Virus record (IMG/VR): IMGVR_UViG_2896589216_000002
DNA length: 34,924 bases
DNA from: a virus
Lineage: Duplodnaviria > Heunggongvirae > Uroviricota > Caudoviricetes
Direction: 5' to 3' (one strand)
Shown: positions 32,178-32,406 of the stretch, one piece after another
Position numbering within the stretch: position 1 is the first letter of the stretch
Layout: each line of letters starts with the position of its first letter
Translations under genes and position numbers: made by a program
Notes under the pieces: model-generated
Databases searched by the model: none
Told to the model about the DNA's origin: nothing
Seen by the model: only the letters and a program-made list of their open reading frames with translations

Positions 32178-32406
32178 ATGTTGAAAATTGATGCTATAGC
32201 GTTTTTTGGCAGCAAAACAAAGCATTGCCAATGCCGCAGGAGTTAGGCTGGCAAGCATTGCTGCATGGGGGGAACTGGTTCCTGAAGGTCGCGCGATGCG
32301 CCTGCAAGAGGCATCTGGCGGGGAACTTCAGTACGACCCCAAAGTTTATGACGAATATCGTAAGGCAAAACGACCTGGGAAGGTGATTCATGAAAATCAG
32401 GCATGA
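32178..32406 (+). pseudogene. dicC: DicC-like Cro-type regulator with a 1-nt insertion near 32223-32224
   Basis: ATG frame gives MLKIDAIAFFGSKTK then stops; +1 frame continues (S)IANAAGVRLASIAAWGELVPEGRAMRLQEASGGELQYDPKVYDEYRK matching DicC. Confidence 0.7.

What the first reader, a model, noticed from the sequence alone, without database searches (positions are those of the whole stretch)
32178..32406. dicC (Cro-like) carries a 1-nt insertion; only a TTG-initiated truncated form remains
The ATG frame gives MLKIDAIAFFGSKTK and then terminates. The rest of the DicC-like sequence continues in the +1 frame from about 32224 (aag c-a-tt gcc; removing one base restores K-L-A). The site is not a homopolymer, so this is less likely to be a sequencing artefact. 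With dicA intact, the locus may be locked in the repressed state.
Basis: seen in the sequence. Interest (0 to 1): 0.5.

Follow-up and report, generated by a model that had tools for sequence, protein, structure and literature searches.

The report
Frameshifted Cro-like dicC pseudogene
A small phage-derived switch gene (the Cro-like dicC) in a heavily eroded prophage remnant, probably from Shigella, is broken by one extra base; the mutation is real and inherited, but it is ordinary gene decay.

Summary
Compared with the intact 75-aa allele, the window has one extra A at 32224 (GC-A-TT, not a homopolymer). The ATG at 32178 has a strong ribosome-binding site, but its frame now gives only 22 aa: 15 native residues, then HCQCRRS, with the stop at 32244-32246. 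The rest of the protein lies in the +1 frame up to 32406.

The repaired protein is a full-length DicC-family, P22-Cro-type regulator, 75% identical to E. coli K-12 DicC. The break falls in the region that aligns with the helix-turn-helix part of P22 Cro.

This is not a sequencing error. The same extra A occurs in eight other Shigella assemblies. It occurs in none of 708 complete E. coli genomes that carry this stretch. A second Shigella group carries an independent nonsense mutation (Q51*) in the same gene.

The 66-aa TTG reading frame has no ribosome-binding site and is probably not expressed.

The DicA-like repressor and the YdaT gene are intact. However, insertion sequences cut the prophage down to about 3 kb, and no dicB or lysis genes remain. 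"Locked in the repressed state" is therefore plausible but of little consequence. This is an ordinary pseudogene of a known family, of low interest.

The parts
32178..32406 (+). dicC-like (Cro-type) pseudogene: the whole former coding region, from the native ATG to the TGA that is now in the +1 frame
   Evidence: With the A at 32224 removed, the translation is identical to the 75-aa WP_000912291.1. It scores 158.3 bits against NCBIfam NF007282 'DicC' (cut-off 130) and 49.7 bits against Pfam P22_Cro (cut-off 30.2). It is 75% identical to K-12 DicC.
32224..32224 (+). The inserted A (GC-A-TT) that causes the frameshift at codon 16
   Evidence: It is the only gap in alignments with intact alleles. 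The same base is present in eight other Shigella assemblies.
32178..32246 (+). The remaining 5' reading frame: 15 native residues, then HCQCRRS and a TAG stop (22 aa)
   Evidence: This peptide matches no Pfam family.
32206..32406 (+). Mechanical 66-aa TTG reading frame holding the 3' part of dicC; probably not translated
   Evidence: One search lists the frame. It has no Shine-Dalgarno sequence, +0.6 kcal/mol. Older GenBank annotations of two Shigella draft genomes call it a gene (EFW50650.1, EIQ63630.1).
32166..32171 (+). Shine-Dalgarno sequence AAGGAG of the native dicC start, 6 nt before the ATG
   Evidence: Anti-Shine-Dalgarno duplex energy -8.3 kcal/mol; sequence read.
32102..32177 (.). 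dicA-dicC intergenic control region. It holds a putative dicC promoter (-35 TTGACT 32123-32128, 17-nt spacer, -10 TAGTTT 32146-32151). It also holds three TTAG-N6-CTA(A/C) operator-like sites (32103-32116, 32128-32141, 32154-32167).
   Evidence: Sequence read. A perfect 7-nt inverted repeat lies at 32151-32157 / 32164-32170. The core is the same as in the K-12 DicA operator Oc, TTGTTAGTCATAACTAACAA (PMC3441716). The strict promoter scan did not report this promoter, so it is inferred by eye.
31694..32101 (-). Intact dicA-like repressor gene (135 aa), transcribed away from dicC
   Evidence: It scores 237.3 bits, full length, against NCBIfam NF007257 'transcriptional repressor DicA' (cut-off 101). 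It is identical to WP_000787424.1 and 62% identical to K-12 DicA. The frame is open in all 23 related sequences examined.
32390..32812 (+). Intact ydaT-like gene (140 aa, CII-analogue family). It overlaps the old dicC end by 17 nt and has its own Shine-Dalgarno sequence.
   Evidence: Pfam YdaT_toxin, 44.4 bits. Shine-Dalgarno duplex energy -7.7 kcal/mol. The exact protein is seen on 494 contigs.
31339..31494 (-). ydfA-like DUF1391 gene, first gene of the leftward (dicB-operon-like) transcription unit
   Evidence: Pfam DUF1391, 101 bits. 90% identical to K-12 YdfA.
32903..32984 (+). 5' stub (27 codons) of the prophage replication-initiator gene (HTH_36 type), cut off by IS600
   Evidence: Locus L016 carries the uninterrupted 174-aa HTH_36 gene, and its homology with the window ends at 32984. 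The 57-aa junction frame is annotated SbBS512_E0691 in S. boydii CDC 3083-94.
32985..34211 (+). IS600-type insertion sequence that forms the right end of the prophage remnant; an IS1 follows from 34212
   Evidence: Homology breakpoints. Annotated names from E. coli hits (IS600, IS1).

Best explanation
This is a genuine, vertically inherited frameshift pseudogene of a DicC-type Cro analogue. It sits in the immunity region of a lambdoid prophage that insertion sequences have reduced to about 3 kb, in a chromosome that is probably from the Shigella boydii / S. dysenteriae group.

Shown: an extra A at 32224 shifts the frame at codon 16. Judged by the alignment with P22 Cro, this falls in the part of the protein corresponding to its helix-turn-helix. 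Ribosomes starting at the strong native ribosome-binding site make a 22-residue peptide and stop at 32246.

Inferred: no DNA-binding DicC is made. The DicA/DicC two-repressor switch has therefore lost the partner that shuts off dicA and stabilises the 'on' state. With the DicA-like repressor intact, the module stays in the DicA-repressed state. The early stop also removes translation across the last 143 nt before ydaT. That may lower ydaT expression, although ydaT keeps its own ribosome-binding site.

The remnant has lost its dicB-type, replication and lysis genes, so the practical effect is small. The lesion is best read as decay of a gene that no longer has a job. There may also have been a mild benefit from removing a growth-inhibiting regulator.
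For: Location and nature of the lesion:
- A single-base gap at 32224 against intact alleles.
- The repaired product is identical to an annotated 75-aa Cro/CI regulator. It passes the DicC NCBIfam model and the P22_Cro Pfam model over its full length.
- It aligns with P22 Cro (PDB 1RZS) over residues 1-58, E = 2.4e-7, so codon 16 lies in the N-terminal DNA-binding part.

The lesion is real and inherited:
- The same A is in AKNG01, AERM01 (S. dysenteriae CDC 74-1112), UYIT01, CP026834, CP026807, PSSQ01, CP026823 and CP026840.
- These differ from the window at other sites and in their flanks.

The lesion is derived:
- 708 complete E. coli genomes carry the stretch without the extra base.
- The exact intact protein is seen on at least 1000 contigs.

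No rescue by the TTG frame:
- No Shine-Dalgarno sequence, +0.6 against -8.3 kcal/mol.

Context of decay:
- IS600 cuts the replication gene at 32985, and further insertion sequences lie on both sides.
- No DicB, YdfB, YdfC or YdfD homologue is present.
- One +A genome (CP026823) has also lost ydaT, with a stop at codon 59.

Expected consequence, from published work:
- K-12 lacking dicC switches the dicB promoter on about 30 times less often (PMC10448788).
- A ydaS stop mutant loses the ydaST-on state (PMC8630535).
Against: No expression data exist for this locus, so loss of function is inferred from sequence alone.

The 66-aa frame keeps residues 17-75 and still scores 127.5 bits against the DicC model. 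A low level of a partly active protein cannot be excluded.

The dicC sequence downstream of the frameshift shows no further damage in any +A genome. That fits a recent event. It would also fit residual constraint, but overall divergence among these alleles is too low (0.1-0.4%) to tell the two apart.

A single-sequence AlphaFold model of the intact protein was too poor to place the helices independently (pLDDT 53.5).
Confidence: 0.9

Rival explanations
1. The inactivation was positively selected rather than neutral. After IS600 truncated the prophage, Shigella lineages repeatedly silenced the rightward dicC-ydaT unit while keeping the repressor. They did so by knocking out dicC or by mutating its promoter. 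DicC-type regulators are growth-inhibiting, and a Cro-less module gives stable repression or immunity.
For: - Two independent lesions, +A at codon 16 and Q51*, arose on the same IS600-truncated background.
- Every one of the 15 assemblies with that IS600 junction carries one or the other.
- dicA is open in all 23 sequences.
- S. flexneri 4343-70 keeps dicC in frame but has three substitutions at the putative -10 element, TAGTTT to TGGTTT.
- Variable sites cluster in the two control regions: 20 of the 31 variable sites in the 1581-bp comparison lie in 224 bp.
- Inducing DicC in K-12 causes a growth defect that does not depend on the Qin toxins (PMC11430063).
Against: - Only two independent knock-out events were seen.
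- The sampling is biased. Loci were retrieved through an exact YdaT protein and an exact junction peptide, and many assemblies belong to the same clades.
- Pseudogenes are numerous in Shigella (my own knowledge, not tested here), so a neutral hit in a gene made useless by the loss of the lytic genes is the simpler account.
- One +A genome has also lost ydaT, as expected for general decay.
- The clustered intergenic changes could come from recombination with similar prophage regions elsewhere in the genome.
Confidence: 0.25
2. A functional DicC variant is still made. Three routes are conceivable:
- initiation at the TTG (66 aa);
- a +1 ribosomal slip on the U6 run at 32201-32206 (GCG UUU UUU GGC), which would give a 75-aa protein with FGSKTKL replaced by LAAKQSI;
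- recoding at the AGU-UAG stop, which follows an AGGAG.
For: - The TTG frame keeps 59 of the 75 native residues and nearly passes the DicC model.
- By inspection, U UUU UUG allows the Phe tRNA to re-pair perfectly in the +1 frame.
- The downstream part is undamaged in all +A genomes.
Against: - The TTG has no Shine-Dalgarno sequence.
- The frameshift site is a derived lesion, absent from 708 E. coli genomes and from the intact Shigella alleles. It is therefore not a conserved recoding site.
- There is no slow codon or stop next to the U run to stimulate slipping.
- At AGU-UAG the Ser tRNA cannot re-pair in the +1 frame.
- Any product would have a changed or missing N-terminal segment, which is conserved from P22 Cro to DicC.
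Confidence: 0.04
3. The extra base is a sequencing or assembly error, and the gene is intact in the organism.
For: Single-base indels are the most common assembly error, and only one base is involved.
Against: - The site is not a homopolymer.
- The identical insertion is found in eight other assemblies, both draft and complete, which differ from the window elsewhere.
Confidence: 0.01

Closest known systems
[quoted passage not shown]
   Same: The repaired protein is 75% identical over its full length and passes the DicC family model. The gene layout is the same: dicC is transcribed away from dicA, with a ydfA-like gene beyond dicA. The operator core is the same, TTAG-N6-CTAA (PMC3441716). In K-12, DicC acts as the Cro partner of DicA in a two-state switch (PMC10448788).
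   Different: Here the gene is frameshifted at codon 16. The downstream neighbour is a 140-aa ydaT-type gene rather than the 96-aa ydfX annotated in K-12. The dicF-dicB-ydfD part of the leftward operon is absent. An rha-type gene preceded by isrK and C4 RNA elements lies there instead.
Cro of Salmonella phage P22 (PDB 1RZS; Pfam PF14549)
   Same: The sequences match over residues 1-58 of both proteins, E = 2.4e-7. The repaired protein scores 49.7 bits against Pfam P22_Cro.
   Different: The relationship is distant. The window copy is a pseudogene in a prophage remnant that cannot replicate or lyse.
YdaS/YdaT with their repressor (RacR in Rac of K-12; PaaR2 in CP-933P of O157:H7)
   Same: The module logic is the same: a repressor gene, a divergent Cro-like gene, then ydaT (a CII analogue), then replication genes (PMC8630535, PMC9986795). 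Stop codons in the Cro-like ydaS abolish the 'on' subpopulation there, which is the behaviour expected of the lesion here.
   Different: The Cro-like protein here belongs to the P22_Cro/DicC family. It matches the YdaS family only weakly, 20.4 bits against a cut-off of 30. The repressor is DicA-type, not RacR or PaaR2.

Membership tests
DicC subfamily (NCBIfam NF007282 / PRK09744) | Full-length match above the curated cut-off (130 bits) | tested here: met
   The repaired 75-aa sequence scores 158.3 bits over model positions 1-74 of 75. This shows ancestry, not present function.
DicC subfamily (NCBIfam NF007282 / PRK09744) | An uninterrupted reading frame of about 75 aa from the native start with its Shine-Dalgarno sequence | tested here: not met
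   The ATG frame stops after 22 codons. The longest remaining frame (66 aa, TTG) scores 127.5 bits, below the 130-bit cut-off, and has no Shine-Dalgarno sequence. The feature is therefore a pseudogene of this family, not a working member.
DicC subfamily (NCBIfam NF007282 / PRK09744) | Transcribed away from a DicA-type repressor gene across a short region with repeated operators | tested here: met
   The DicA model scores 237.3 bits for the gene at 31694-32101 on the minus strand. The intergenic region is 76 bp and has three TTAG-N6-CTA(A/C) sites, the same core as K-12 Oc (PMC3441716).
DicC subfamily (NCBIfam NF007282 / PRK09744) | Binds the operators and represses dicA (Cro-like activity) | not testable with these tools
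   This needs gel-shift or reporter assays. It is known for K-12 and O157 DicC only from the literature (PMC10448788).
P22 Cro family (Pfam PF14549) | Domain match above the gathering score (30.2 bits) that includes the N-terminal part | tested here: inconclusive
   The repaired protein scores 49.7 bits over profile positions 3-57. As encoded, the 66-aa frame scores 31.0 bits over positions 12-57 only, and the 22-aa frame matches nothing.
Programmed +1 frameshift genes (prfB type) | The frameshift site is conserved among homologues | tested here: not met
   The intact alleles in E. coli and Shigella are in a single frame. The shift is a derived insertion limited to one group of Shigella assemblies.
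Programmed +1 frameshift genes (prfB type) | A slippery codon before an in-frame stop, with a Shine-Dalgarno-like stimulator at the right spacing | tested here: not met
   By inspection, CGC AGG AGU UAG has an AGGAG, but the Ser tRNA on AGU cannot re-pair on GUU. The U6 run at 32201-32206 has no adjacent stop or rare codon.

The most novel reading that the evidence does not exclude
The lesion is one of several convergent steps by which Shigella lineages 'domesticated' this immunity module. After IS600 removed the replication genes, different lineages each disabled the rightward dicC-ydaT unit. The routes were +A at codon 16, Q51*, and changes in the promoter -10 and -35 elements. Meanwhile the operator and promoter DNA on both sides of dicA changed rapidly and the repressor gene stayed almost invariant. 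This would point to selection to keep a permanently 'on' DicA-type repressor, for immunity to related phages or for control of host genes.
Probability: 0.2. Interest if true: 0.4.

Novelty: already known. Interest (0 to 1): 0.13.

Why it matters
On its own it matters little. It is one more pseudogene in an IS-riddled prophage remnant. Both the gene family (DicC/Cro) and the expected effect of losing it are already documented experimentally in E. coli K-12 and O157:H7.

Its practical value is for annotation. The 66-aa 'DicC' entries in older Shigella draft genomes (EFW50650.1, EIQ63630.1) are fragments of a frameshifted gene.

The wider pattern seen on the way is a modest lead on how bacteria tame prophage switches. 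That pattern is two independent knock-outs of the Cro-like gene, an invariant repressor, and fast-changing operators. It would need a proper phylogenetic and experimental test.

Tried and rejected
- Exact 35-nt pattern across the insertion in one genome per species (genome contigs) and in metagenome contigs: no match in either. This is uninformative about Shigella. I assume from my own knowledge that Shigella is not represented separately from E. coli in that species set, which I did not check.
- AlphaFold2 on the intact protein without an alignment: mean pLDDT 53.5, unusable for placing helices. I relied on the sequence alignment with P22 Cro instead.
- Consensus promoter scan of 31500-32450: it did not report a promoter in the dicA-dicC intergenic region. 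The promoter I give is read by eye and by analogy with K-12, so it is marked as inferred.
- Search for DicB, YdfB, YdfC, YdfD and dicF of K-12 in the window. No protein hit was found, and there were only chance 9-11-nt matches for dicF. Rfam gives a sub-threshold DicF hit at 31101-31151 on the minus strand, 28.6 bits against a gathering score of 48. I do not count it as a dicF gene.
- Sequencing error: considered and rejected, because the insertion is shared by eight other assemblies.
- Programmed frameshift or a functional TTG product: considered and rejected, because there are no signals, no conservation and no Shine-Dalgarno sequence.
- Source genome of the window: none of the retrieved loci has IS1 directly after IS600 as the window does. 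The source genome was therefore not pinned down. The closest matches are AKNG01 (identical across 29991-32984 apart from alignment-edge gaps; one mismatch over 28796-34211) and CP026807 and CP026823, which share the G at 32144.

Full report
**What is in the sequence**

The region 31694-32812 holds a compact lambdoid immunity module.
- A 135-aa gene lies on the minus strand at 31694-32101.
- A 76-bp intergenic region follows.
- An ATG at 32178 is preceded by AAGGAG at 32166-32171.
- A 140-aa gene lies at 32390-32812 on the plus strand.

The ATG frame reads MLKIDAIAFFGSKTKHCQCRRS and stops at 32244-32246. The +1 frame is open from a TTG at 32206 to 32406 (66 aa) and reads ...IANAAGVRLASIAAWGELVPEGRAMRLQEASGGELQYDPKVYDEYRKAKRPGKVIHENQA. 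The one slip is that the ATG frame runs seven codons beyond ...KTK before it stops.

**Where exactly the lesion is**

A megablast of 32100-32420 against 5,426 complete E. coli genomes finds the stretch in 1,126 genomes. The best matches, FDAARGOS_943 and FDAARGOS_944, are 99.4% identical over 320 bases against 321 in the window. Alignments with these and with two more distant alleles show one gap, at window 32224. It is an A between C and T in AAAGC-A-TTGCC. The position is unambiguous and is not a homopolymer.

Removing the A gives a 75-aa protein identical to the annotated Cro/CI family regulator WP_000912291.1.

**What the gene was**

- The repaired protein matches the NCBIfam DicC model over its whole length, 158.3 bits against a cut-off of 130.
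- It matches Pfam P22_Cro at 49.7 bits against a cut-off of 30.2.
- It is 75% identical to E. coli K-12 DicC.
- It aligns with the solved P22 Cro (1RZS) over residues 1-58, E = 2.4e-7.
- The divergent gene is a full-length DicA-type repressor, 237.3 bits. It is 62% identical to K-12 DicA and identical to WP_000787424.1.
- The downstream gene belongs to the YdaT family. Published work on CP-933P treats YdaT as the CII analogue (PMC8630535, PMC9986795).
- Beyond dicA lies a ydfA-like DUF1391 gene.
- The intergenic region has three TTAG-N6-CTA(A/C) sites, one of them a perfect 7-nt inverted repeat. The proven K-12 DicA operator Oc, TTGTTAGTCATAACTAACAA, has the same core (PMC3441716).

The frameshift at codon 16 falls in GSKTK|LANAAGVRLAS. 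By alignment with P22 Cro this is in the N-terminal DNA-binding part. That this corresponds to the helix-turn-helix rests on my knowledge of the P22 Cro structure and was not tested here.

**Real or artefact**

Looking up the exact 66-aa frame finds it in two NCBI draft assemblies, AKNG01 and AERM01. AERM01 is named S. dysenteriae CDC 74-1112. Both carry the same A.

I then looked up the exact YdaT protein and the 57-aa IS600 junction peptide. These brought in 20 more loci from complete and draft genomes of the same kind. The extra A is present in UYIT01, CP026834, CP026807, PSSQ01, CP026823 and CP026840 as well.

These sequences differ from the window at other positions and in their flanking insertion sequences. 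They are therefore independent observations of an inherited allele.

No complete E. coli genome matches the 71-nt stretch around the site exactly. There are 708 carriers, and the best hits are one base shorter. The intact protein is seen on at least 1000 contigs. The insertion is thus derived, real, and limited to one group of Shigella genomes.

**Is anything functional left?**

The native ATG has a strong Shine-Dalgarno sequence, -8.3 kcal/mol. The TTG at 32206 has none: +0.6 kcal/mol, worse than the window background mean of -2.5. It also lies 28 nt inside the frame translated from the ATG.

The next in-frame start after the premature stop is the ATG at 32296. It would give 36 residues without the DNA-binding part.

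The 66-aa frame lacks the first 15 residues, which are conserved between this protein, K-12 DicC and P22 Cro. It falls just short of the DicC model cut-off.

I considered ribosomal +1 slipping on the U6 run at 32201-32206 and recoding at AGU-UAG. Neither has a stimulatory signal, and the site is not conserved, so I give these routes a few per cent together.

**Context and likely consequence**

The module is all that remains of the prophage.
- IS600 (32985-34211) cuts an HTH_36-type replication gene after 27 codons. That gene is complete in locus L016.
- An IS1 follows from 34212.
- To the left, an rha-type gene (30077-30622, minus strand) is followed by further IS elements.
- There is no homologue of DicB, YdfB, YdfC or YdfD in the whole window.

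Published experiments indicate what loss of the Cro partner does.
- In K-12, deleting dicC lowers spontaneous switching-on of the dicB promoter from 1.16% to 0.04% of colonies. It also weakens induction by urea and heat (PMC10448788).
- In CP-933P, stop codons in the Cro-like ydaS remove the ydaST-on subpopulation (PMC8630535).

With nothing lytic or division-inhibiting left to release, this has little consequence. The premature stop also leaves 143 nt untranslated before ydaT. That could lower ydaT expression, but this is inferred, and ydaT has its own Shine-Dalgarno sequence at -7.7 kcal/mol.

**Something seen on the way**

All 15 assemblies that share the IS600 junction at 32985 have a dead dicC.
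- Nine, including the window, carry +A.
- Six carry an independent C-to-T change at 32329 that turns Gln51 into a stop. One of these six, CP049281, is an S. boydii strain (PMC7545283). The 50-aa product is on 163 contigs, with names that include S. sonnei.

dicA is open in all 23 sequences, and one +A genome has also lost ydaT. Alleles with an intact dicC sit in differently truncated or fuller prophages.

Among 13 alleles, 15 variable sites fall in the 148-bp ydfA-dicA intergenic region and 5 in the 76-bp dicA-dicC region. This compares with 1 in the 408-bp dicA gene. S. flexneri 4343-70 has three substitutions at the putative -10 element of the dicC promoter.

This could mean selection to silence the rightward unit while keeping the repressor. 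DicC induction is growth-inhibiting in K-12 (PMC11430063). It could equally reflect neutral decay together with recombination among similar prophages. The sampling here is also biased by how the loci were retrieved. I give the selective reading about 0.2-0.25.

**Verdict**

The finding is correct and the mutation is real. It is, however, an ordinary frameshift pseudogene of a well-known regulator family, in a genome type that I know to be rich in pseudogenes and insertion sequences. Nothing about its mechanism is new. Interest is low.

Noticed in passing
window 32329 (C in the window; T in loci L009, L010, L014, L020, L021, L023, L025): A second, independent knock-out of the same gene. A CAG-to-TAG change (Q51*) occurs in another group of Shigella assemblies that share the same IS600-truncated remnant. 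Every assembly with the IS600 junction at 32985 has either +A or Q51*, and none has an intact dicC.
   Followed up: partly
window 31566-31620 and 32118-32152: Variation among 13 closely related alleles is concentrated in the two control regions flanking dicA. There are 15 variable sites in 148 bp and 5 in 76 bp, against 1 in the 408-bp dicA gene. At least five haplotypes occur in the 10-bp patch 31586-31595. The cause is unresolved; selection on promoters and operators, or recombination with similar prophages, are both possible.
   Followed up: partly
window 32144 (G; T in most other alleles), 32125 in L005, and 32143/32144/32147 in L017: Lineage-private substitutions hit the putative dicC promoter.
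- The window, AKNG01, CP026807 and CP026823 have T-to-G two bases upstream of the -10 hexamer.
- S. dysenteriae CDC 74-1112 has TTGACT changed to TTAACT in the -35 element.
- S. flexneri 4343-70 has TAGTTT changed to TGGTTT in the -10 element.
   Followed up: partly
window 30677-30764 (-) and 30790-30866 (-): Rfam matches above the gathering score to C4 antisense RNA (78.6 bits) and isrK (63.8 bits). They lie just upstream of the rha-type gene (30077-30622, minus strand). Some annotations merge this RNA region into a 265-279-aa 'Rha' protein. The +A lineage also has an extra A at 30789, between the two RNA elements, relative to the Q51* lineage.
   Followed up: no
window 31101-31151 (-): A sub-threshold DicF-like Rfam hit (28.6 bits against a gathering score of 48), at the place where a dicF-type RNA would be expected downstream of ydfA. 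It shows no blastn similarity to K-12 dicF.
   Followed up: no
locus L026 (CP026823), ydaT at 2489-2910: In one +A genome the neighbouring ydaT gene is also broken, with a stop at codon 59. This shows continuing decay of the module.
   Followed up: no
window 1-29950 and 32985-34924: The window is very rich in insertion sequences: several IS66-family copies, IS3-family elements including IS600, and IS1. It also holds a block of phage baseplate and tail-fibre genes at about 8800-15300. That block is 99% identical to prophage regions of several human-derived E. coli genomes, one of which (CFSAN029787) I recall to be enteroinvasive. This fits a Shigella or enteroinvasive E. coli chromosome.
   Followed up: partly
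GenBank proteins EFW50650.1 and EIQ63630.1 (66 aa) and EGJ85523.1 (52 aa): Older draft annotations list fragments of this gene as proteins, under the names 'DicC' and 'repressor protein dicB'. The 66-aa entries are the TTG frame of the frameshifted allele. The 52-aa entry, from S. flexneri 4343-70, is a short call within an in-frame gene.
   Followed up: yes
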